A DNA stretch of 64,000 nucleotides from Patescibacteria group bacterium (lineage in GTDB: Bacteria > Patescibacteriota > Minisyncoccia > UBA6257 > GWB1-50-10): assembly GCA_040757555.1 (NCBI GenBank), contig JBFLWN010000002.1, positions 83,116-147,115 on the forward strand, given 5' to 3'. Positions 3,185-49,645 of the stretch are shown one piece after another (position 1 is the stretch's first letter; each line of letters starts with the position of its first letter). A program made the translations under genes and the position numbers. A model generated the notes under the pieces. That model searched no databases and was not told the DNA's origin. It saw only the letters and a program-made list of their open reading frames with translations.

Positions 3185-4984
3185 CTATACCACCTCCGCT
3201 TGATAACATTGTTCACAATAGACTATTTCTTTCCTTTCGGGTGCATATGATGTCTCGAATTCATTGGGGCACCTTCCTGTTCCATGTTGATGTTGTGCAG
3301 TGTTTTGATATATTCCATTCTCTGATTTTTCACCAGTACACTGACAAGCGCGATGCCAGAGCTTCATCGGATTGCGTTTGTTAAAACGTTCAAAGTGACG
3401 TGTATTCGGACATTTCCGTGGAAGCGGAATATTCATCCTCCGATAGAATGCTAACTCCTCGGGAATAATGCGAAATGCTTTTGTGCAATTATGTTCGGCA
3501 GTAACATCCAGAGAACCACGCTTCTCCCACGTTTCACATGAAATTATTTCATTCAAAATATCATCACCAATTGAAGAGATGCGTTCAGGAAGATCTTGAT
3601 ATGACTTCGTTGCAACATGTTCTTTTTCCTGCGGATCTTCCCATACATATCCAACTTTTTGAGCTTCTTCTTTTGTCATAGGAAAATGATCATATGCCGC
3701 CGTTGTATTATATGCGGAAGTGGAAAGATCGGGTGGATAAAATTCTCCAAATTTATATTCCCTCCCCTGTTTGTCCTTATACGGCATCGCATTCATGTGC
3801 TCAATAATCTTCGGAACAAGCGCTTCATATTCTTCTTTTGTGTATTGTTTATTCAGAATGCAATATTCTTTACTTTTTAATCCAATGCATCCAAATAAAT
3901 TTGAAGAGGAATAACAATTATCTACATATGTTAAGTCGTGACATGAATCCCACGTCTCGTTCGCAAAACGAATATTCGAAACATTGTATCCGCAATTTGA
4001 TGTTTCATATACAAGCTCGGTGGCTCTCCCCCAATATGAATAATCCATACAATCTTTCGCTTCAAAAATAGAAAGGAGATATTTTCCATTTTCGACTTCT
4101 CTCGACTGGTACGAGTCTTTCACCCTATTACAATTATTTAACCAATTCCCGGAAACATCGGTACTGTTTATATTGGTTACCGACTGATGAATAGTACCAG
4201 CCACAAGTGCGGAAAAACGTTCGGAAAGTTTTTGTAATCCGGCAGCGGTATCAAGATCCAACTCTTTTATCTTTTTTTCATACTCTTCCTTCGTATATTG
4301 CTTATTTAAAATTGAATATTGCGCATTTCTAAGTCCTGCGCACGCAATGCAGTTGGTACAATTTCTGCAATCGAAAAGAAAATAAGAATCGCGACACTGC
4401 TTACACTCCTGACAATATTGAACATTGTAACAATCATTAATATCGATGGATTGATACGCAAGTTCGGATTTATCTGCATTAAAACAATCGGCGCAGTCAC
4501 GTGAATTCCAGAGGAGGTATGAATAGCGGGAATTTTCATTGTAATTTGCCCGAATAAGTAAATAACAATCCTTGTTGTAACTTGCCCGATTACAATATTC
4601 ACTTCCCACAATATCTCCCTGACGAATAAGAGAGGCGCGAGGTACCCGCATTTTCATTTCCTTAAATTGCTCAAAAAACGGTTTATCAAAATTATATTCC
4701 CTTCCGTATGAAATTGGATCCCATTTATCGCTTCGATAACATTCGAGACAATACAGAGGAAAAGATGTTCCGGGCGGATACATCGCAATCATATTTTTTC
4801 CGCATAAACTGCAGGTGTTTTTATACAAATGCCGTTCATTACAAAACGAAAGTCTCCGCTGAAATCGACAGGGAGGACACCAGGTCGGCGCGGGCACTTT
4901 TATTTTTTCATAAAAATCAAAGTCCTCCGGTGCAATGGTAAACGAGTTTTTGCAGTTTTGACACTGTTTTGCCTCCGAATTCAT
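3185..4984 (-). CDS. Cys-rich multi-zinc-ribbon protein, paralog 1 of 5 (599 aa), family not recognised
   Basis: Long intact ORF. N-terminus MNSEAKQCQNCKNSF...PTWCPPCRFQRR is a rubredoxin-like CxxC...WCPxC knuckle pair. Central CRNCTNCIAC...GLRNAQYSILNKQYTKEEYE module, with a second copy degenerate (SSNLFGCIGLKSKEYCILNKQYTKEEYE). C-terminal FYRRMNIPLPRKCP...CQC...CEQCYQAEVV. About 40 Cys. No signal peptide or TM. Confidence 0.8.
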   Translation of the reverse strand: MNSEAKQCQNCKNSFTIAPEDFDFYEKIKVPAPTWCPPCRFQRRLSFCNERHLYKNTCSLCGKNMIAMYPPGTSFPLYCLECYRSDKWDPISYGREYNFDKPFFEQFKEMKMRVPRASLIRQGDIVGSEYCNRASYNKDCYLLIRANYNENSRYSYLLWNSRDCADCFNADKSELAYQSIDINDCYNVQYCQECKQCRDSYFLFDCRNCTNCIACAGLRNAQYSILNKQYTKEEYEKKIKELDLDTAAGLQKLSERFSALVAGTIHQSVTNINSTDVSGNWLNNCNRVKDSYQSREVENGKYLLSIFEAKDCMDYSYWGRATELVYETSNCGYNVSNIRFANETWDSCHDLTYVDNCYSSSNLFGCIGLKSKEYCILNKQYTKEEYEALVPKIIEHMNAMPYKDKQGREYKFGEFYPPDLSTSAYNTTAAYDHFPMTKEEAQKVGYVWEDPQEKEHVATKSYQDLPERISSIGDDILNEIISCETWEKRGSLDVTAEHNCTKAFRIIPEELAFYRRMNIPLPRKCPNTRHFERFNKRNPMKLWHRACQCTGEKSENGIYQNTAQHQHGTGRCPNEFETSYAPERKEIVYCEQCYQAEVV

Positions 4985-4998
4985 ATACCTATATTACC

Positions 4999-6696
4999 CT
5001 AAATTATCTCTGCGTTGTAGCACGTCTCGCAGTAGATGATCTCTGGCCTCTCCGACGAATAAGAAGTCTCAAATTTATTTACACATTGTCCATTATGACC
5101 GTGAGATAATTCTTTGCACATACATTGTCGATGCCAAAGTTTTCGAGGTGGACGAAGTGATATGCGCTTTCGATAGCGACATTCTGGACAATTTCTGGGG
5201 ATCGGAATATTCATTCGCTTATAAAACTCGACTTCGGGATCAACCACATTATAATTTCGATCGCATGAAATACAGGTGAGCGCTTCTTTTGTTATTGAAT
5301 CTGATACATCGACAATAGTATCGGGAATTTGATCGGGGGAAAGAGTTCCCTTTCCACGGGTTACTCGAACGTCATCCTGCCATCGAAATCCCCGAGAAAT
5401 TGCAATCTCTTTCTCCATCGGCATATAGATATCTCCATGGGTCTCGTTATATCCGAAAGGAGATAATGCGGGAGGAAAAAATTCACCATATTCTCCTCTC
5501 TTTTTCATTTCTTCAACGAGCTCACTTTTTATGTGCTCATACTCCTCTTCCGAATATTGCGTATTTAAAATACAATATTCTCCTTTTCTCACACCAACAC
5601 ATCCAAAAAGATTTTGTGAATTATGGCATGAGTCACAATAATCTATAAACGTGTTCTCATATGAGAGATGACAAAACCTCACGTTCGATGCATTGGTAAG
5701 TGCATGCGATTCATAGGTAAGCTCGGTTGTCCCCAATCCAACACTCAAAAGGTCCATCGAATCCTTCGCAATAACGATTGCGCTATGACGAACATTCTCG
5801 CTGTCGTAGGCATAATAGCCATTATATATATTTCGGGAATTATGAATTTCATCCCCCACCACATTCTGTGATTTTTCTATCTGTGCATATTTGTGTATTC
5901 CTTTATGTTGAATAATATCAATCCATTTTTTATACAGTTCCGCGCGTTCTCGATATGATCCCAAATTAAATTCTTTCAATTTTTTGTCGTACTCCTCTTT
6001 CGTCAATTGTTCATTTAAAAAACAGTATTTTTTATTCCTTAAATTCCAGCTCAAGAAACAATTTTGACAATTAGTACAATCAAAACAATATTTACACTCA
6101 ATACTGTCATGCACAAAAAAACAAAATTCACACTTAAAATCCCTATCACAATGAAAACATTCATATAAAAACTCTCCCCCTTCGTATGCAAGATTTACAT
6201 CACAGGAGTCTTTTGTGCCATTCCAACAATTGCTCAAATAAAATCCATTTTCACAATTAAAACAGTCAAATGAAAGATATACATTTTTATTGTCCGCCGA
6301 ATGGTTGGTATATTCACTGTTTACAGAATTTTTTCCAAGAAGTGCAACCCGCGGAACCTTTAATTGTAATTCTTTAAATTGTTCAAAAAACGGGCGATTT
6401 ATATCTATCTTCATTGCAAAATCCATAGGACTCCACGTATCTCCCCACCAACACGTATGACAATACACCTTATATGGTGCGTCAGGATGATAAATCGTCA
6501 CTGTTGATTTTCCACACAAATCACAGTTCCTTCGATAGAGGTTACGTTCATTTCGCCATGCATAACGCCTCATCTGCCGACAATCAGGACACCACATTGG
6601 TAGTGGAACATTTATTTTCCCGTAAAATTCAAAATCTTCACTCTCGAGGGTGAAGTTGTGTTTGCAGTTTTGACATTGCTTTGTCTCAGCATTCAT
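4999..6696 (-). CDS. Cys-rich multi-zinc-ribbon protein, paralog 2 of 5 (565 aa)
   Basis: Tandem with paralog 1 (14-nt gap). Same architecture: MNAETKQCQNCKHNF...MWCPDCR; CKYCFDCTNCQNC...LRNKKYCFLNEQLTKEEYD; CDSCHNSQNLFGCVGVRKGEYCILNTQYSEEEYE; C-terminal NCPECRYRKR...CETCYNAEII. The start codon and 12 upstream nt are identical to paralog 1. Confidence 0.8.
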   Translation of the reverse strand: MNAETKQCQNCKHNFTLESEDFEFYGKINVPLPMWCPDCRQMRRYAWRNERNLYRRNCDLCGKSTVTIYHPDAPYKVYCHTCWWGDTWSPMDFAMKIDINRPFFEQFKELQLKVPRVALLGKNSVNSEYTNHSADNKNVYLSFDCFNCENGFYLSNCWNGTKDSCDVNLAYEGGEFLYECFHCDRDFKCEFCFFVHDSIECKYCFDCTNCQNCFLSWNLRNKKYCFLNEQLTKEEYDKKLKEFNLGSYRERAELYKKWIDIIQHKGIHKYAQIEKSQNVVGDEIHNSRNIYNGYYAYDSENVRHSAIVIAKDSMDLLSVGLGTTELTYESHALTNASNVRFCHLSYENTFIDYCDSCHNSQNLFGCVGVRKGEYCILNTQYSEEEYEHIKSELVEEMKKRGEYGEFFPPALSPFGYNETHGDIYMPMEKEIAISRGFRWQDDVRVTRGKGTLSPDQIPDTIVDVSDSITKEALTCISCDRNYNVVDPEVEFYKRMNIPIPRNCPECRYRKRISLRPPRKLWHRQCMCKELSHGHNGQCVNKFETSYSSERPEIIYCETCYNAEII

Positions 6697-6720: not shown

Positions 6721-7875
6721 CTAAACAGCGAGGCGTTTTTGTATTTTGTTCTTTTCCGGAAGTGGAATTTTTGTTTTCTCTACATACTTCTTCATCGTAT
6801 CAATCGTCACATCATATGTTTTCCTATCCACAGGATATGGTGTGGCGTCTTTTCCTCCATGTGCAAATGAATATCGTGCGGGATCTTCGTACGACGGTTT
6901 TGCGCCATAAATAACCTCCGAGACAAGTGCGAGGGCGCGAATTGTTTTTGGGCCCACCCCTTCAGTTGAAAGAAGTTTTTCATAACTCTCCGGCTGTTCA
7001 TCACATAACTTCCACAAAATTTTCTCGAGATATGCGCTTTTTGAAAAATCTTCCATCACCACCGGGTGTGTCTTGAATTCTTTATTTTCGAGCTCGAGGA
7101 GTGTTAATTGCTTCCCCTCCCCGTTTCCCAATGAAACCATTTTTGAAAGCGGAGAGTAATATCTTCGAAGAAGTTGAATATCTTTCATAAGCACTCCAAA
7201 ACTCTGATGAGTAAGATCGGCACTTATTTCCCGATTCTTTTCGCTTTCATTCGCGGTCATATTCAACACATTCGGAATTTTTATCTGGCTTGAAATTCCC
7301 GAATGCGGTTCGCGAATTAAATCTTTTGCCGTTTCCGAATGCCAATGATATCGTCGTGCAGTTTGGTTTTCTTTATTCATTCCCTGTTGCACCACCGTCC
7401 ACGCTCCATTCTTTGTAAAGAAAAATGTGTGGTGATAAATCTGAAATCCATCTTGAATAAGCGCACTATCCACCTTCGCGGCCATACGCGAATTATATGA
7501 AAGTGCGCGTATGTTTTTTTCACTGAGTGCCAATCGGGACCCCCATGTAAATATTTCGTCGGGTGTTTTTCGAGATGTCTTTCCTTTTCCTCCACAAATA
7601 AAAATTCCGAGGTTACGTTCCTCCCCTCGGATTGCCTCCTTGAGTGCGGCGGTGAGTATTGTCGTAAGCCCCGAAGCGTTCCAATCAAAGGCCAAAACCG
7701 TCCCCAGGGACTGGAACCACACCGGATCCCCAATACGCCGTATAAAGGCATCTGGACCCTCTTCTGCGACGATTACGTGCATCATCTCCCGCCCCAGCAT
7801 CACCATGCGGTCAAAAAGCCACTTTGGGCACTTCCCATAATCAAGTGTAAATGTGGCAATCCCGCGCTGGATCAT
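6721..7875 (-). CDS. DUF763-family protein (384 aa), function unknown
   Basis: N-terminus MIQRGIATFTLDYGKCPKWLFDRMV resembles the conserved N-terminus of DUF763 proteins as I recall them (not a search). Immediately upstream and co-oriented with Cys-rich paralogs 2 and 1 (24-nt gap). Confidence 0.5.
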   Translation of the reverse strand: MIQRGIATFTLDYGKCPKWLFDRMVMLGREMMHVIVAEEGPDAFIRRIGDPVWFQSLGTVLAFDWNASGLTTILTAALKEAIRGEERNLGIFICGGKGKTSRKTPDEIFTWGSRLALSEKNIRALSYNSRMAAKVDSALIQDGFQIYHHTFFFTKNGAWTVVQQGMNKENQTARRYHWHSETAKDLIREPHSGISSQIKIPNVLNMTANESEKNREISADLTHQSFGVLMKDIQLLRRYYSPLSKMVSLGNGEGKQLTLLELENKEFKTHPVVMEDFSKSAYLEKILWKLCDEQPESYEKLLSTEGVGPKTIRALALVSEVIYGAKPSYEDPARYSFAHGGKDATPYPVDRKTYDVTIDTMKKYVEKTKIPLPEKNKIQKRLAV

Positions 7876-13919: not shown

Positions 13920-13931
13920 GAGGAATTTTTG

Positions 13932-14002
13932 TGCGGGATACGGGAATCGAACCCGTGTCTCAACCTTGGGAAGGTCGCATTCTACCACTGAACCAATCCC
14001 GC
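13932..14002 (-). tRNA. tRNA-Gly (anticodon CCC)
   Basis: Minus-sense GCGGGATTGGTTCAGTGGTAGAATGCGACCTTCCCAAGGTTGAGACACGGGTTCGATTCCCGTATCCCGCA. Acceptor GCGGGAT/ATCCCGC, anticodon loop TTCCCAA, T-loop TTCGATT. Confidence 0.85.
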
Positions 14003-19486: not shown

Positions 19487-19557
19487 CGGGCTGTAGTATA
19501 CCGGTAGTACGCATGCATGGGGTGCATGTAGACCGGGTTCAATTCCCGGCAGCCCGA
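19487..19557 (+). tRNA. tRNA-Pro (anticodon GGG)
   Basis: CGGGCTGTAGTATACCGGTAGTACGCATGCATGGGGTGCATGTAGACCGGGTTCAATTCCCGGCAGCCCGA. Acceptor CGGGCTG/CAGCCCG, anticodon stem CATGC/GCATG, loop ATGGGGT, T-arm CCGGG-TTCAATT-CCCGG. Confidence 0.85.
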
Positions 19558-19600
19558 CATAATTATAAAATCTCGCTTTATGCGGGGTTTTATAATTTAT

Positions 19601-19717
19601 GATGTGTTGGGAATTGAAGGGAACCACGAGCGCATATGGGATATGAATAAGCGAGTGGTCCCTGGTTTCGAAGGAGGAGTGAAACGACGGGAGAGAAAAA
19701 TTCCCGGCAGCCCGACA
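19601..19717 (+). repeat. tRNA-Pro-linked repeat unit 1 (inverted T-arm copy at 5' end, direct copy of tRNA 3' end at 3' end)
   Basis: gggaattgaa at 19609-19618 is the reverse complement of the tRNA-Pro T-loop plus stem (ttcaattccc). ttcccggcagcccgaca at 19701-19717 is a direct copy of the tRNA 3' end. Preceded by an AT-rich hairpin at 19558-19600. Confidence 0.6.
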
Positions 19718-19744
19718 ACGGAGAGATGAAAGTTCGCACTTGAG

Positions 19745-19880
19745 TGCGAATTGTCGGAAATTGAAGGGCGGAGCGATGTGTATTCAGCAGAATGCACCGC
19801 GAGCCCGGGCTCGAAACCTTTTTGAGTGACGGCGAAAAAAGAGTTGAGAGAATTCCCCCCATACCGACATAATTATAAAA
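19745..19880 (+). repeat. tRNA-Pro-linked repeat unit 2 (diverged tandem copy of unit 1)
   Basis: ggaaattgaaggg at 19756-19768 and gaattccccccataccgacataattataaaa at 19850-19880 (compare the tRNA's aattcccggcagcccgacataattataaaa). Aligns with unit 1 along its length (GAGCG, TCGAA, GACGG, TTCCC..CCGACA). Confidence 0.6.
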
Positions 19881-19906
19881 AATCCTGTGACAAACAGGAT
19901 TTTTTA
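19880..19906. terminator. Bidirectional terminator (atcctgtgacaaacaggat + T5)
   Basis: 7-bp stem followed by a T-run. Ends the tRNA-Pro/repeat transcript and also the convergent gene 19904-20227. Confidence 0.6.
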
Positions 19907-20227
19907 TTTCATTTTCTCTATCAATCTCATAATCTCACCTCGATGTTTATTAATAATACTTGGGTCTCTAAAGTTTTTTGAAAATTCTACGAGATTGTTT
20001 ACCGCCCCCATAATTGAATCTTTTGTCGGATGATTAAAGTCACCACCAGAATCCGAAAAAGCCTTTTTTACAACTTCTCTGCAGTATAATTTACTTGCTT
20101 CGCTATCGTTTTCCCCGATATTTGCATCGAGACAATGCGCCTCATAAAAACACTGTGAAATCGCATCACGTACCATAAGTGGCGTCACGACCCCATCTAT
20201 GTCAAAACCATAAATAGACTCTCCCAT
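19904..20227 (-). CDS. hypothetical protein (107 aa)
   Basis: ORF directly upstream of ftsX on the same strand; no motifs recognised. Confidence 0.4.
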   Translation of the reverse strand: MGESIYGFDIDGVVTPLMVRDAISQCFYEAHCLDANIGENDSEASKLYCREVVKKAFSDSGGDFNHPTKDSIMGAVNNLVEFSKNFRDPSIINKHRGEIMRLIEKMK

Positions 20228-22608: not shown

Positions 22609-24387
22609 TTAAACCACTTCCGCCTGATAACAACTCTCACAATAGACAATCTCTGTTCTATCGGGAGAATAATTTGTTTCAAACCCATTTGGACAAGAAT
22701 CCTTTCCGTGAATATGTGTAGAAGTATTTTGGTATATTCCATTTTCTGATTTCTCACCTCCACACTGACACTTTCGATACCAATGTTTTATCGTATTACG
22801 ACGTTTTAATCTAGTATAATGCCGACAATTGGGACAAAGCCGCGGAAGCGGAATATTCATAAGTTTATAAAATTCAAGTTCTGACCGAATAATTCTAAAT
22901 GCTGTTGTACAATTATCTTTACATTTTCCTTCATGAGCGCACCCAATAACCTCGTCAAGGATACCGTCACCCGCATCTTTCGCATATGCAGGAAGTTCAC
23001 TTGGTTTTCTTGTAATAGAGTAATTCTTTGTATCAACTATGTGCCAATTAAATCCATTTTCCATTGCCTCTTCCATTGTGAATGGTAAATGTTCTTGATC
23101 CGGAGTCTCATTATATCCAAGGGGTGAAAACTCTGCGGGAAAAAATTCTCCATACTTGTAACTCCTTCCTATTTTATCCTTATAAGGTACCCCACTCATC
23201 TGCTGAACCAATTTTTCAACGAGTACCCCATATTCTTCTTTTGAATATTGTTTGTTGAGAATACAGTATTGTTTATTCCGAAGACCAAAACATCCAAAAC
23301 AATCCGAGGTGGAGATGCAGCTCCCACAATATTGAAGATTTTTTACATTCGTCCAACATTGAAAGCAAAATTTAATATTATATGCACCATCACCGATTTG
23401 ACTACTTTCATACACCAATTCATTACCGATAAAAGTGGAAAGATCATAACAATCTTTATTGGGGCCCGCCTGAAGATACTGACAATACTTAATATCTTCG
23501 CCATCTCTTATTAAAAATGAATTTTTTACATTTTTTGATTGATTAATATAATCCCCCGTAACATCTACATTTTTTGTTCCCTCCATAAATTTTACCGGAA
23601 AATTAAGCCAAAAATTTATTGCCTTCATTTTATATTCCTCAAACAGATCATAGGAACCAGAGAAAATTTTTTTTATTTCTTCTCCATATTCTTCTTTTGA
23701 ATATTGTTCGTTAAAAATACAATAACTTTTGTTTCGCATATTTACACACCCAAAACAATCAGAACATCCCCTTAAATTCTTCGAAAAATAAATATCAAAA
23801 CAGTCTTCACAATTTTCTGAATACACCGCCCTATTGCACCGCGTAAGCCAGAATCCTTCATAACAGAGTTCACTGTGAGAAATATGGGAGTTGTCGAAAC
23901 AACTCTTCGAATAGTCGATGCCGTTTGAATATGCAGAATCTTCCGAATAATTCCCGTTAAAACAAAGATAGCAATTTTTAAAGCCGGTACACTGATTCGA
24001 ATAATCACTTGCTACCGGGTTTATTACGCTTTTTGCGCGCCAAGGAACATCATGCCAAAGTTCAAGAATTTGTTGTAAAAAAGGTTTTGTGAAATCAATA
24101 TTTCTTCCATAATCCATTGGATCCCATTTATCAGAATTCCATATATCGAGTTCATACACCTTTATAGGTGCATCCGGAGCACATTGAGAAAAAATCATTT
24201 CCCCAGAAAAATCGCTTTTTCGCTTGTACAGAAAATGCTCATTACGAAATGCAAATCGTCGTTGAAAACGACATATCGGACACCACGTTGGTGGAGGCAC
24301 ATCTATTTTTTTGTAGAAATCAAAATCTTCACTCTCAATAGTGAAGTTATTATGGCAATTCTGACACGTTTTTACCTCCGAACTCAT
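22609..24387 (-). CDS. Cys-rich multi-zinc-ribbon protein, paralog 3 of 5 (about 592 aa)
   Basis: MSSEVKTCQNCHNNFTIESEDFDFYKKIDVPPPTWCPICRFQRR. Central CSDCFGCVNMRNKSYCIFNEQYSKEEY and CGSCISTSDCFGCFGLRNKQYCILNKQYSKEEY. C-terminal LCPNCRHY...CESCYQAEVV. The second and third N-terminal CxxC pairs are lost (SDFSGE, ELDIW). The start was trimmed from the track's 24495 because that extension reads through a tRNA-Thr 3'-end copy. Confidence 0.75.
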   Translation of the reverse strand: MSSEVKTCQNCHNNFTIESEDFDFYKKIDVPPPTWCPICRFQRRFAFRNEHFLYKRKSDFSGEMIFSQCAPDAPIKVYELDIWNSDKWDPMDYGRNIDFTKPFLQQILELWHDVPWRAKSVINPVASDYSNQCTGFKNCYLCFNGNYSEDSAYSNGIDYSKSCFDNSHISHSELCYEGFWLTRCNRAVYSENCEDCFDIYFSKNLRGCSDCFGCVNMRNKSYCIFNEQYSKEEYGEEIKKIFSGSYDLFEEYKMKAINFWLNFPVKFMEGTKNVDVTGDYINQSKNVKNSFLIRDGEDIKYCQYLQAGPNKDCYDLSTFIGNELVYESSQIGDGAYNIKFCFQCWTNVKNLQYCGSCISTSDCFGCFGLRNKQYCILNKQYSKEEYGVLVEKLVQQMSGVPYKDKIGRSYKYGEFFPAEFSPLGYNETPDQEHLPFTMEEAMENGFNWHIVDTKNYSITRKPSELPAYAKDAGDGILDEVIGCAHEGKCKDNCTTAFRIIRSELEFYKLMNIPLPRLCPNCRHYTRLKRRNTIKHWYRKCQCGGEKSENGIYQNTSTHIHGKDSCPNGFETNYSPDRTEIVYCESCYQAEVV

Positions 24388-24446
24388 ACCAAAATTATAG
24401 TAGAAAACACCATAAAACAAAAATATTTCTTTCAAAATATTTTTAG

Positions 24447-24600
24447 TTGAGCCAATGGTCGGCAATTGAACGTCGCTTTTCAAACTCCCTGACACCTTGC
24501 GGTTTCAGTGCTTCCACCACGGGAAAACTCCCGTTTTCCCGATCCCTTTCCCGTTCAAATCCGACACGCAATAAAAAATACTCTTTTCAGAGTGTTTTTT
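24447..24600 (-). repeat. tRNA-Thr-linked repeat unit (AT hairpin, inverted T-arm copy, direct copy of tRNA 3' end)
   Basis: Minus-sense order after the tRNA: hairpin aaaaaacactctgaaaagagtatttttt; then gtcggatttgaac (revcomp of the tRNA-Thr T-arm gttcaaatccgac; plus-strand coordinates 24553-24565); then a spacer; then gttcaattgccgaccattggctcaa at 24447-24471, which copies the tRNA's last 16 nt ccgaccattggctcaa. Confidence 0.55.
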
Positions 24601-24607
24601 ATTATTG

Positions 24608-24680
24608 AGCCAATGGTCGGATTTGAACCGACGACCCACGCTTTACGAAAGCGTTGCTCTACCAACTGAGCTACATTGGC
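24608..24680 (-). tRNA. tRNA-Thr (anticodon CGT)
   Basis: GCCAATGTAGCTCAGTTGGTAGAGCAACGCTTTCGTAAAGCGTGGGTCGTCGGTTCAAATCCGACCATTGGCT. Anticodon stem ACGCT/AGCGT, loop TTCGTAA. Confidence 0.85.
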
Positions 24681-49361: not shown

Positions 49362-49432
49362 TTAGTTTATTGGGGGATCGTCTAACGGTAGGACACCGCC
49401 CTTTGGAGGCGGGTATCGGGGTTCGAATCCCT
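49362..49432 (+). tRNA. tRNA-Gln (anticodon TTG)
   Basis: TGGGGGATCGTCTAACGGTAGGACACCGCCCTTTGGAGGCGGGTATCGGGGTTCGAATCCCTGTCCCCCAG. Anticodon stem CCGCC/GGCGG, loop CTTTGGA; close to canonical bacterial tRNA-Gln. Confidence 0.8.
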
Positions 49433-49477
49433 GTCCCCCAGCAAATATAAATTAGGCACATCTTTATGGTGTGCTTA

Positions 49478-49609
49478 ATTTATATCTCGTTGAAGGGATT
49501 CGAACGGAACTTTTGCGCATGCATTGCATGAAAAAGCAAAAGTCCGTGGCTTCGGAGGAATCCCGCCATCGGCGGGATGGAGGAGAAGGAATCCCTGTCC
49601 CCCAGCAAA
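49478..49609 (+). repeat. tRNA-Gln-linked repeat unit (same organisation as the Pro and Thr units)
   Basis: After an AT-rich hairpin (aaattaggcacatctttatggtgtgcttaattt) comes ttgaagggattcgaacgg (T-arm-derived, 49484-49501), then an internal hairpin aatcccgccatcggcgggat, then ggaatccctgtcccccagcaaa at 49588-49609, which copies the last 22 nt of tRNA-Gln plus trailer. Confidence 0.55.
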
Positions 49610-49610
49610 A

Positions 49611-49645
49611 AAAGAAAGCGACACAAAATGTCGCTTTCTTTATAT
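49611..49645 (+). terminator. Rho-independent terminator (gaaagcgacacaaaatgtcgctttc + T-run)
   Basis: Hairpin at 49614-49638 followed by tttatatttt. Confidence 0.6.

What the first reader, a model, noticed from the sequence alone, without database searches (positions are those of the whole stretch)
19487..19906. tRNA-Pro(GGG) followed by two tandem, diverged 120-nt units that start with an inverted copy of the tRNA T-arm and end with a direct copy of the tRNA 3' end
After the tRNA (19487-19557) comes an AT-rich hairpin (ataattataaaa...ttttataattat). Unit 1 (19601-19717) begins with gggaattgaa, the reverse complement of the Pro T-loop/T-stem (ttcaattccc), and ends with ttcccggcagcccgaca, identical to the tRNA 3' end. 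Unit 2 (19745-19880) repeats the plan (ggaaattgaaggg ... gaattccccccataccgacataattataaaa). The two units align along their length (GAGCG, TCGAA, GACGG, TTCCC..CCGACA blocks). Direct repeats of a tRNA 3' end that begin in the T-loop are the classic footprint of site-specific integration into tRNA genes (attL/attR), and two units would mean serial events. However, no integrase gene is in the window and each unit is only about 120 nt. The alternatives are a small non-autonomous tRNA-targeting element or a lineage-specific structured RNA that is co-transcribed with the tRNA and folds by pairing its tRNA-derived ends. The same organisation recurs at two other tRNAs (next two findings).
Basis: seen in the sequence. 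Interest (0 to 1): 0.65.

Follow-up and report, generated by a model that had tools for sequence, protein, structure and literature searches.

The report
Insertion cassettes stacked behind tRNA genes
Behind the proline tRNA gene lie two small non-coding insertions, each ending in a hairpin plus a copy of the tRNA's last 19 bases; they belong to an apparently undescribed family of cassettes, some carrying a small nuclease gene, that stack up at tRNA gene ends in ultra-small (Patescibacteria) bacteria.

Summary
tRNA-Pro(GGG) (19487-19557) is followed by two about 115-nt units. Each starts with an inverted copy of the tRNA T-loop/T-stem and ends with a direct copy of tRNA positions 57-73 plus CA. 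The same build follows tRNA-Thr and tRNA-Gln in the window, and tRNAs in other Patescibacteria.

The units are not diverged copies of each other: their cores share no significant sequence. U2 has clear homologues in three other genomes, with compensatory changes in its hairpins. The fold is strand-specific, on the tRNA sense strand.

Relatives 86-98% identical in flanking genes gain, lose and permute these modules. In the window the tRNA-proximal copy is perfect and the distal one is decayed.

In related arrays at tRNA-Gln and tRNA-Asn, cassettes of the same layout carry a 90-108-aa GIY-YIG nuclease gene. One population has an extra identical cassette inserted next to the tRNA.

No integrase, reverse transcriptase or transposase was found nearby, there is no Rfam match, and I found no paper describing this.

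Best reading (0.55): these are ORF-less cassettes of a tRNA-3'-end cassette-array system, probably driven by the nuclease. The insertion mechanism and the role of the hairpin are inferred. A co-transcribed structured RNA is not excluded.

The parts
19487..19559 (+). tRNA-Pro(GGG); discriminator A at 19557, followed by CA. CCA is not encoded. This is the target and anchor of the array.
   Evidence: ARAGORN; Rfam tRNA 55.8 bits.
19559..19600 (+). Terminator-like palindrome t1 (ATAATTATAAAA-TCTCGC..GCGGGG-TTTTATAATTTAT). It forms the 'cargo' part of cassette 1. In relative L082 it is the only terminator of the tRNA.
   Evidence: Sequence; L082 comparison. The simple terminator scan did not call it.
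19605..19618 (+). U1 inverted copies. TGTTGGG (19605-19611) is complementary to the last 7 nt, CCCGACA, with one G.T pair. GGGAATTGAA (19609-19618) is the exact complement of tRNA positions 54-63.
19618..19698 (+). U1 core: hairpin 19618-19663, hairpin 19665-19685, then a purine-only linker GACGGGAGAGAAAA. No homologue was found in 2.3 Mb of related DNA.
   Evidence: Fold, (z=-3.5; 89% of unpaired bases are purines); blastn.
19699..19717 (+). U1 direct copy of tRNA positions 57-73 plus CA (AATTCCCGGCAGCCCGACA, 19/19).
19718..19751 (+). Spacer G2 with hairpin TTCGCAC-TTGA-GTGCGAA (19733-19750). It is the 'cargo' part of cassette 2. Homologous 45-49-nt modules occur alone or in tandem behind tRNA-Pro in L082, L198 and L204.
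19752..19765 (+). U2 inverted copies: TGTCGG (complement of CCGACA), then AAATTGAA. GGAAATTGAA at 19756-19765 differs by one base from the complement of tRNA positions 54-63.
19766..19850 (+). U2 core: hairpin P2 (19766-19806) with a GA/GA internal loop, and hairpin P3 (19810-19848). It is homologous to units behind tRNA-Pro in L202, L084 and L015.
   Evidence: Covariation: 92% of cells paired, 16 of 38 pairs compensatory, 0 of 500 shuffles as good.
19851..19869 (+). U2 decayed direct copy of the tRNA 3' end (AATTCCCCCCATACCGACA, 15/19).
   Evidence: The L202 homologue of this copy matches another tRNA-Pro allele 17/19.
19864..19907 (+). Ancestral downstream flank. It starts with the 17-nt repeat CCGACATAATTATAAAA (19864-19880), also found at 19554-19570. 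The bidirectional terminator t2 follows at 19875-19907.
   Evidence: The same flank follows the tRNA-Pro region in L198 and L081.
24448..24606 (-). tRNA-Thr cassette, in order on the minus strand. First a terminator-like palindrome (24606-24566). Then the inverted copy GTCGGATTTGAAC (24565-24553), which complements positions 53-65. Then two hairpins, then the copy GTTCAATTGCCGACCATTGGCTCA (24471-24448). The ancestral terminator follows.
   Evidence: Homologue with three extra hairpins in L082, and an empty site in L081.
49443..49609 (+). tRNA-Gln cassette, in order. First a terminator-like palindrome (about 49445-49486). Then the inverted copy AGGGATTCGAAC (49494-49505). Then two hairpins, then the copy GAATCCCTGTCCCCCAGCAAA (49589-49609). 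The terminator follows at 49611-49641.

Best explanation
The segment is a tRNA-Pro gene followed by an array of two small ORF-less insertion cassettes.

Each cassette has four parts:
- A short 'cargo': a terminator-like palindrome in cassette 1, a small hairpin in cassette 2.
- An inverted copy of tRNA positions 54 to about 63-65, sometimes also of the acceptor 3' end.
- Two or three GC-rich hairpins joined by purine-only linkers.
- A direct copy of tRNA positions 57-73 plus CA.

On the tRNA-sense strand the inverted copy pairs with the direct copy. Every cassette therefore ends in a T-stem-like hairpin followed by the acceptor 3' strand, re-creating the look of a tRNA 3' end.

Cassettes enter next to the tRNA, which stays intact, and push older ones distally, where they decay. 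The 14-21-nt tRNA-end repeats also allow loss and reshuffling.

Related cassettes with the same ends carry a small GIY-YIG nuclease gene. I infer that this nuclease drives the system: it breaks DNA at or near the tRNA 3' end, and repair or recombination templated on the tRNA-end repeats copies a cassette in, much like homing. On this view the ORF-less units in this window are riders or decayed derivatives mobilised in trans.

Shown: the architecture, its recurrence at Pro, Thr, Gln, Val and Asn tRNAs, conserved covarying hairpins, strand asymmetry, gain/loss/permutation between close relatives, one fresh tRNA-proximal insertion of an identical cassette, and the association with GIY-YIG genes.

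Inferred: the nuclease is the driver, a single-stranded folded form matters, and the exact break point. The boundaries of the two copies (inverted copy reaching position 54, direct copy starting at 57) suggest a staggered break in the T-loop, but insertion just after the 3' CA fits equally well.
For: Architecture and recurrence:
- Found at three of the four window tRNAs, and in L005, L015, L068, L082, L084, L202, L204 and L211.
- The boundaries are regular. The inverted copy ends at the complement of position 54 or 53 in 9 of 10 units. The direct copy starts at 56 or 57 in most (and reading).

Structure:
- On a manual alignment of U2-type units from three lineages, 92% of cells pair and 16 of 38 pairs show compensatory changes. 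No shuffle of 500 did as well, and slid controls gave 34-50% pairing.
- The sense strand folds better than the antisense strand in 10 of 10 units. Unpaired bases are 59-89% purine.

Turnover among relatives with about 86-88% nucleotide identity:
- L082 has neither U1 nor U2.
- L202 has the modules in permuted order.
- L081 and L198 carry a different tRNA-Pro allele with remnants or spacer-only modules.

Filled versus empty sites: the ancestral flank follows the last copy at Thr (window versus L081) and at Gln (L211 versus L210).

Fresh insertion: L213 reads tRNA-A-B and L214 reads tRNA-B-A-B. Copies of CCAAGTCCCGCAGC are spaced 371, 176 and 371 nt, and the two B copies are 100% identical.

Nuclease link:
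- B is a GIY-YIG ORF (Pfam 4e-17).
- Its homologues lie directly 3' of tRNA-Gln in 14 contigs and of tRNA-Asn in 10. Each is followed by a copy of the local tRNA end.
- Its terminal hairpin and its 23-nt leader/ORF-end inverted repeat show compensatory changes.

No integrase, reverse transcriptase or transposase lies nearby.
Against: - No GIY-YIG gene is in the window, and none was seen next to the Pro or Thr units. The link rests on shared architecture and on co-residence in the L213/L214 tRNA-Gln arrays.
- The 90-108-aa proteins are bare catalytic domains. No cleavage specificity is known for them.
- The four unit cores in this genome share no sequence, so they are not recent copies of one master element.
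- The deep conservation of the U2 P2 stem-loop base between distant genomes looks like selection on a folded molecule. That would also fit a functional RNA.
- L084 and L015 have no terminator between the tRNA and the unit, so co-transcription is likely there.
- The role of the inverted copy is unexplained by a purely double-stranded homing model.
- The covariation test used a hand-made alignment of only four sequences.
Confidence: 0.55

Rival explanations
1. A folded single-strand recombination site. In single-stranded DNA the inverted and direct copies pair to mimic the tRNA-gene 3' end. This would resemble the forked attP hairpin of CTX phage, or an integron attC site. Another comparison is the guide-plus-hairpin ends of IS200/IS605 elements. 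A recombinase or HUH enzyme encoded elsewhere would join this hairpin to the tRNA T-loop. On this view the GIY-YIG gene is only cargo.
For: - The observed order (tRNA, cargo, inverted copy, loop, direct copy, old flank) is exactly what a CTX-type single-strand exchange predicts (derived).
- The fold is strand-specific, with G.T pairs and purine loops on one strand.
- The inverted copy lies directly 5' of a hairpin foot and spans both sides of the inferred break, like a guide or splint.
- The array has the newest member proximal, like an integron.
Against: - No tyrosine, serine or HUH recombinase was found in the window or next to any unit.
- There are no RYYYAAC/GTTRRRY boxes.
- There are no dispersed near-identical copies such as a transposing miniature element would leave.
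- A free single-stranded circle of about 170 nt has no known source.
Confidence: 0.17
2. A structured RNA made with the tRNA. Read-through from the tRNA promoter yields an RNA whose terminal helix copies the tRNA's T-stem and acceptor 3' strand. It could be cut out by RNase P or RNase Z and have CCA added. It would then act for the host or for itself, for example as a decoy for enzymes or toxins that bind that tRNA end.
For: - Hairpins are conserved with compensatory changes over large distances.
- Unpaired positions are purine-rich and the sense strand folds better in 10 of 10 units.
- L084 and L015 have no terminator between tRNA and unit.
- The L015 copy ends in CCA although the gene does not encode it.
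Against: - Most units follow a terminator-like hairpin.
- Units are lost or permuted between close relatives and decay in place. U2 is decayed; the L202 copy matches a different tRNA allele; the L082 inverted copy no longer matches its tRNA.
- There is no Rfam match even at E<=10.
- There is no intact T-loop.
- In silico, replacing the inverted copy with poly-A did not change how a read-through RNA folds around the tRNA.
Confidence: 0.15
3. Scars of ordinary integrase-mediated islands. Prophages or islands integrated at the tRNA T-loop and were later almost fully deleted. This would leave attL, attR and about 100 nt of the element's arm.
For: - Direct repeats starting in the T-loop and running to the tRNA end are the classic att signature.
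- The loci are variable, and one has a defence island (type I RM, SMODS/SLATT, Fic) behind a truncated unit in L082.
- Stacked tRNA 3' fragments starting in the anticodon stem occur in relatives.
Against: - No integrase or remnant was found in any of the loci.
- Ten independent units would all have to be trimmed to the same architecture.
- The intact cassettes in L213/L214 are only 176 and 371 nt long and move as such.
- Viral-contig scans for the tRNA ends and the U2 core gave only chance hits.
Confidence: 0.08

Closest known systems
Free-standing homing-endonuclease elements that carry a replacement 3' end of the host gene. An example from my own knowledge, not checked here, is the GIY-YIG ORF element at the end of atp6 in Allomyces mitochondria. 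Free-standing seg/mob genes of T4-like phages are reviewed in PMC2988022.
   Same: - A small GIY-YIG ORF sits directly behind an intact host gene.
- The displaced copy of the gene's 3' end lies downstream.
- Presence and absence differ between close relatives, and neighbouring alleles are replaced together with it.
   Different: - The host gene is a tRNA.
- Cassettes form arrays.
- Most members, including all in this window, have no ORF.
- Every cassette ends in a hairpin built from an inverted copy of the target.
- The nuclease is a bare 90-108-aa catalytic domain.
Integron cassette arrays (attI plus attC hairpins) and the folded attP of CTX phage and other Xer-dependent elements.
   Same: - Serial cassettes, each ending in an imperfect palindrome with a variable branched loop.
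- The newest cassette lies next to the anchor site.
- The hairpin stem resembles the target.
- One strand is the structured one.
   Different: - The anchor is a tRNA 3' end, not attI or dif.
- There are no R/L boxes.
- There is no IntI or Xer link.
- Cargo is mostly a terminator or nothing.
tRNA-gene att sites of tyrosine-integrase islands and prophages.
   Same: - The direct repeat runs from the T-loop to the tRNA 3' end.
- The tRNA is restored.
- Tandem accumulation occurs.
   Different: - No integrase is present.
- Inserts are 110-370 nt.
- There is an extra inverted copy.
Miniature non-autonomous elements: MITEs, and the palindrome-associated derivatives (PATEs) of IS200/IS605.
   Same: - They are small, ORF-less, hairpin-rich and polymorphic.
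- They would depend on an enzyme supplied in trans.
   Different: - The terminal repeats are copies of the local target, not of a family consensus.
- There are no dispersed multi-copy families.
- They occur strictly behind tRNA genes.

Membership tests
Tyrosine-integrase island att sites at tRNA genes | Direct repeat of the tRNA 3' part flanking the inserted DNA | tested here: met
   19-21-nt exact copies.
Tyrosine-integrase island att sites at tRNA genes | Integrase gene inside or next to the insert | tested here: not met
   Pfam scan of all window ORFs of 120 aa or more, and of neighbours in L005, L015, L068 and L082.
Integron cassette array | Cassettes each ending in an imperfect palindromic site, with the newest next to the anchor | tested here: met
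   Window Pro array; L213 versus L214.
Integron cassette array | attC core boxes RYYYAAC / GTTRRRY, and an IntI integrase with attI | tested here: not met
   The inverted copies end in ..TTGAA or ..CGAAC and the direct copies start at position 57. No integrase was found.
CTX-type folded attP (Xer-dependent elements) | Two inverted target-like sites about 90 nt apart that fold into a hairpin mimicking the target | tested here: met
   Folds. This is a match of form only.
CTX-type folded attP (Xer-dependent elements) | Target is dif with XerC/XerD arms; the element is a single-stranded DNA phage or satellite | tested here: not met
   The target is a tRNA 3' end. There are no phage genes, and viral-contig scans gave only chance hits.
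Free-standing GIY-YIG homing-endonuclease cassette | Endonuclease ORF within the inserted DNA | tested here: not met
   None in the window (tblastn; Pfam). Present in related arrays L211, L213-226 and L245-254.
Free-standing GIY-YIG homing-endonuclease cassette | Displaced copy of the host gene's 3' end downstream, with filled and empty alleles among relatives | tested here: met
Free-standing GIY-YIG homing-endonuclease cassette | The enzyme cleaves the empty allele near the insertion site | not testable with these tools
   This needs biochemistry.
MITE / IS200-IS605 PATE | Many dispersed near-identical copies with family-specific ends | tested here: not met
   Each core is unique in the window and in 2.3 Mb of relatives.
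MITE / IS200-IS605 PATE | Cognate transposase (TnpA/TnpB) in the genome | not tested
   Only fragments of the genomes were available. None was seen in the annotated loci.
Any Rfam RNA family, including tRNA-like RNAs and small ribozymes | Covariance-model match | tested here: not met
   Gathering scan. E<=10 scans of the three loci gave only tRNA hits and sub-threshold terminator-type hits.

The most novel reading that the evidence does not exclude
These may be members of a new kind of mobile cassette system whose recombination site is a mimic of the tRNA T-arm plus acceptor strand. An internal inverted copy of the target would act as a guide or splint in a single-stranded (DNA or RNA) intermediate. 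Any tRNA could then be targeted simply by carrying the matching pair of copies, with a minimal GIY-YIG nuclease as the only enzyme. That would make it a programmable, integron-like platform anchored on tRNA genes in Patescibacteria.
Probability: 0.2. Interest if true: 0.85.

Novelty: new variant of a known kind. Interest (0 to 1): 0.66.

Why it matters
- Patescibacteria have tiny genomes and few recognised mobile elements. A cassette system that stacks behind tRNA genes would be a so far unrecognised route of gene gain, loss and tRNA-allele replacement in this very large group.
- It would also explain puzzling tRNA-fragment debris in their genome assemblies.
- The target-derived inverted copy, conserved by compensatory change, hints at target recognition by base pairing with a very small nuclease. 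That would interest researchers in mobile DNA and genome engineering.
- In practice, such arrays can mislead tRNA and non-coding RNA annotation, and can break assemblies.

Tried and rejected
- **Known RNA family:** Rfam at gathering and at E<=10 on all three loci gave nothing. By-eye checks for the hammerhead core, a K-turn and group II intron domain V failed: the junctions and bulges do not fit.
- **Phage or plasmid attP:** viral-contig scans with the Pro and Thr 3' ends and with the U2 core motif returned only chance hits in GC-rich coding DNA.
- **Integrase, reverse transcriptase or transposase nearby:** none found.
- **Unit as an inverted pseudo-tRNA:** beyond the T-arm complement there is no similarity to the reverse complement of the tRNA (read).
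- **U1 and U2 as diverged duplicates:** rejected.
- **Multi-copy MITE:** rejected.
- **Inverted copy as an RNA 'insulator':** the idea was that it stops the downstream copy from capturing the tRNA's 5' acceptor strand in read-through RNA. In silico, replacing it with poly-A changed nothing.
- **Exact-sequence look-up of the window's FtsX:** not on record, so the source genome itself could not be surveyed.
- **Covariance model:** I did not build one, because the cores differ too much between tRNA types and motif searches had already found all U2-type members in the fetched DNA.
- **Literature:** five searches found no description of such cassettes.
Full report
**1. What is in the sequence**

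The window comes from a Patescibacteria (CPR) chromosome close to Candidatus Jorgensenbacteria. Its EF-G is at best 77% identical to proteins of uncultured CPR genomes. Its FtsX is 76% identical to a Jorgensenbacteria protein.

ARAGORN and Rfam find four tRNAs:
- Gly(ccc) 13931-14002, minus strand
- Pro(ggg) 19487-19557, plus strand
- Thr(cgt) 24607-24680, minus strand
- Gln(ttg) 49371-49441, plus strand

The Pro gene is followed by these elements, in order:
- A terminator-like palindrome (19559-19600).
- Unit U1 (19605-19717).
- A 34-nt hairpin spacer (19718-19751).
- Unit U2 (19752-19869).
- The terminator t2 (19875-19907).

U1 starts with TGTTGGG/GGGAATTGAA. These are the complements of the last 7 nt of the tRNA and of tRNA positions 54-63. 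U1 ends with an exact 19-nt copy of positions 57-73 plus CA.

U2 has TGTCGG/AAATTGAA at its start and a decayed copy (15/19) at its end.

tRNA-Thr and tRNA-Gln each carry one unit of the same build. tRNA-Gly carries none.

One correction is needed: U1 and U2 do not align in their cores (z=1.2). They share a plan, not a sequence.

**2. Anatomy**

Each unit folds on the tRNA-sense strand into a three-way junction or a larger branched structure. The junction is closed by pairing of the inverted copy with the direct copy.

In ten units from seven genomes:
- The sense strand always folds better than the antisense strand (10 of 10).
- Unpaired bases are 59-89% purine on the sense strand and 16-42% on the other.

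The boundaries are regular:
- The inverted copy ends at the complement of position 54 or 53 (..GAA or ..GAAC) in nine of ten units.
- The direct copy begins at 56 or 57 in most units.
- Five units also carry the complement of the acceptor 3' strand.

The closing helix therefore has the sequence of the tRNA's T-stem, followed by the acceptor 3' strand. Every unit end imitates a tRNA 3' end, with the T-loop replaced by 80-150 nt of hairpins.

**3. Family and structure conservation**

U2 has homologues behind tRNA-Pro(ggg) in L202 and L084, and behind tRNA-Pro(cgg) in the distant L015. They share GAAGGSCGSAGCGATGT...ACCGCGAGSCC.

I aligned them by hand and fixed the alignment with N-padding (alignment A2). 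Results:
- 92% of cells form standard pairs.
- 16 of 38 pairs show changes on both sides.
- None of 500 shuffles did as well.
- Slid controls gave 34-50% pairing.

Caveat: there are only four sequences from three lineages, and I fitted the alignment to the structure myself.

The Thr unit has a homologue in L082 with three extra GC-rich hairpins inserted in loops.

No unit matches any Rfam family, even at E<=10. No core occurs a second time in the window or in 2.3 Mb of related DNA.

**4. Turnover**

Relatives with about 86-88% nucleotide identity in flanking genes differ sharply at these loci:
- **L082** has the window's tRNA-Pro allele. It has only a 45-nt spacer module and terminator t1. U1, U2, t2 and the neighbouring 107-aa ORF are all absent.
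- **L202** has the order tRNA, spacer, U2, t1, remnant. This is a circular permutation of the window's order. Its U2 copy of the tRNA end matches another tRNA-Pro allele (17/19) rather than the resident one (13/19).
- **L081 and L198** carry that other allele, with a remnant or with a spacer only.
- **L204** has a third allele, a mini-unit with a perfect 19-nt copy, and 2.3 tandem 49-nt spacer modules.

At Thr, the terminator that follows the unit in the window directly follows the tRNA-derived end in L081. At Gln, the flank that follows the copy in L211 directly follows the tRNA in L210.

So the units are insertions between the tRNA and its original flank. New ones lie next to the tRNA and old ones decay distally. 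They do not co-evolve with the tRNA afterwards: the L082 inverted copy no longer matches its tRNA's T-loop.

**5. The nuclease link**

In L211 the space between tRNA-Gln and its downstream copy holds a 93-aa GIY-YIG ORF (Pfam E=4e-17).

Contexts of its homologues:
- P0246 (72% identical) and P0259 (75%) lie directly 3' of tRNA-Gln(ttg) in 14 further contigs of other Patescibacteria.
- P0293 (67%) lies directly 3' of tRNA-Asn(gtt) in 10 contigs.
- The P0327 group (66%) has no intact tRNA upstream. It keeps the leader and a tRNA-Asn-type copy (CCTACCCGTGGAGC).
- The P0320 group (64%) is preceded only by a T-arm-like remnant and the conserved leader.

These cassettes share several features:
- A conserved leader follows the tRNA's 3' CA or CCA.
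- A 23-nt inverted repeat joins the leader to the end of the ORF.
- A terminal hairpin, GGTRTTCC..GGAYACC, is a drifted version of the inverted/direct T-arm pair. It shows compensatory changes.
- A copy of the local tRNA end closes the cassette: CCCTGTCCCCCAGC, CCAAGTCCCGCAGC, CCCGGCAGC or CCTACCCGCGGAGC.

Two samples of one population differ by one cassette. A is a non-coding cassette of exactly the window's type: terminator, inverted copy TTGGATTCGAAC, hairpins, copy. B is the GIY-YIG cassette.
- L213 reads tRNA-A-B.
- L214 reads tRNA-B-A-B.
- The tRNA-end copies are spaced 371, 176 and 371 nt.
- The two B copies are 100% identical.

This is a fresh insertion next to the tRNA. It shows that coding and non-coding cassettes share one array and one kind of boundary.

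**6. Mechanism**

Best explanation (confidence 0.55): the window's units are ORF-less cassettes of a tRNA-3'-end cassette-array system. I infer three further points:
- The GIY-YIG nuclease makes a break at or near the tRNA 3' end.
- Repair or recombination guided by the 14-21-nt tRNA-end repeats copies cassettes in and also deletes and reshuffles them.
- The T-arm-mimic hairpin matters in a single-stranded form.

The 54/57 offset between the inverted and direct copies would fit a staggered cut in the T-loop. The GIY-YIG cassettes begin right after CA or CCA, which would fit insertion at the very end of the tRNA. I cannot decide between the two.

Weak points:
- No GIY-YIG gene is in the window or beside the Pro and Thr units.
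- The proteins are bare catalytic domains.
- A double-stranded homing model does not need the inverted copy.

**7. Rival explanations**

- **Folded single-strand site used by a recombinase or HUH enzyme in trans (0.17).** The topology is exactly what CTX-type integration predicts, and the inverted copy sits like a guide 5' of a hairpin foot. However, no such enzyme was seen.
- **Co-transcribed structured RNA (0.15).** Covariation, purine-rich loops, and the lack of a terminator before the unit in L084 and L015 favour it. Terminator-like hairpins before most units, rapid loss, and decay out of step with the tRNA argue against it. An in-silico 'insulator' role was rejected.
- **Scars of ordinary integrase islands (0.08).** There are no integrases, the architecture is uniform, and intact 176- and 371-nt cassettes move as such.
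- **Chance** is excluded.

**8. Comparison with what is known**

The system works most like free-standing homing-endonuclease elements that bring a replacement 3' end of their host gene. In layout it resembles an integron array or a CTX-type folded att site.

It fails defining features of each of these families:
- No ORF in this window.
- No IntI or attC boxes.
- No dif or Xer sites.
- No integrase.
- No multi-copy family.

Five literature searches found no description of it.

I rate it a new variant of a known kind, with a 0.2 chance that it is a new guide-based cassette system.

Noticed in passing
L081 11605-11676, L198 7328-7400 and L204 7165-7236, compared with window 19487-19557: Genomes whose FtsX is 88-98% identical carry three clearly different tRNA-Pro(ggg) alleles, differing in acceptor, anticodon and T stems. 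The same holds for tRNA-Thr (L081, L204) and tRNA-Gln (L210, L211, L213, L217). Whole tRNA genes appear to be replaced together with the cassettes.
   Followed up: partly
L081 4520-4690; L018 downstream of 5555-5631; L015 downstream of 7235-7308; L152 downstream of 1042-1113: This is a second kind of debris: stacked tRNA 3' fragments that begin in the anticodon stem. There are two in a row behind tRNA-Thr in L081. They are separated by only 17-46 nt and have no inverted copy. Some have a GC-rich hairpin in place of the variable loop.
   Followed up: partly
L082 720-870; L084 2479-2516; L081 (behind tRNA-Pro, and about 4740-4790); L204 about 7100-7160; L015; L018: Short GC-rich perfect hairpins (CCCGCC..GGCGGG, CCTGCC..GGCAGG) recur. 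They appear as insertions inside units, inside tRNA-end copies (between the T-stem and acceptor parts) and at a gene start, in otherwise AT-rich genomes. They may be a separate family of mobile mini-hairpins.
   Followed up: no
L204 6980-7070 (also L205-L209); L082 10964-11012; L198 7287-7322: A 45-49-nt module (CGAACGAAGGTGAGGGAGATACTGAGCACAG.AGTGCGAA.GTAC..GAC) follows tRNA-Pro alone or as 2.3 tandem copies. Each copy ends in a few bases of the tRNA end. The window's spacer 19718-19751 is a relative. The motif GGGAGATACT also occurs in the L211 tRNA-Gln cassette.
   Followed up: partly
L082 923-8560: A defence island replaces the 628-aa gene found at window 22609-24495. It encodes type I restriction-modification (HsdM, HsdS, HsdR), SMODS with a SLATT effector, and Fic. 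It abuts a truncated second Thr-unit start (GTCGGATTTGA). No integrase is present.
   Followed up: partly
L210 1721-2407 and L211 4661-5344: A 227-aa protein with an N-terminal helix-turn-helix is inserted between dnaX (or a SET-domain gene) and tRNA-Gln. It contains the segment WLAGIMLYWAEGAK, which I only suspect resembles a LAGLIDADG motif. It is absent from the window.
   Followed up: no
L081 17104-17352: A GIY-YIG homologue (30% identity, tblastn E=2e-8) lies just upstream of tRNA-Gly(ccc). This is in a roughly 350-nt stretch that the window lacks between fusA and tRNA-Gly. L030 18010-18240 has another homologue.
   Followed up: no
window 14002-13929, 19557-19559, 24608-24606, 49441-49443: None of the four tRNAs encodes CCA, yet in all four the discriminator base is followed by CA. 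The unit copies include this CA. In L015 the copy ends in CCA although the gene does not.
   Followed up: no
window 19904-20227 (minus strand): A 107-aa ORF with no Pfam match lies between terminator t2 and ftsX. It is present in L081 and L198-L203 but absent in L082, L084 and L204. It is part of the variable stretch.
   Followed up: partly
L213 1519-1541 with 1784-1806; L211 5403-5429 with the ORF end: The GIY-YIG cassette's 5' leader is complementary to the last codons of its own ORF (23 nt, 91%). There are compensatory differences between L213 and L211. This long-range stem encloses the whole ORF.
   Followed up: partly
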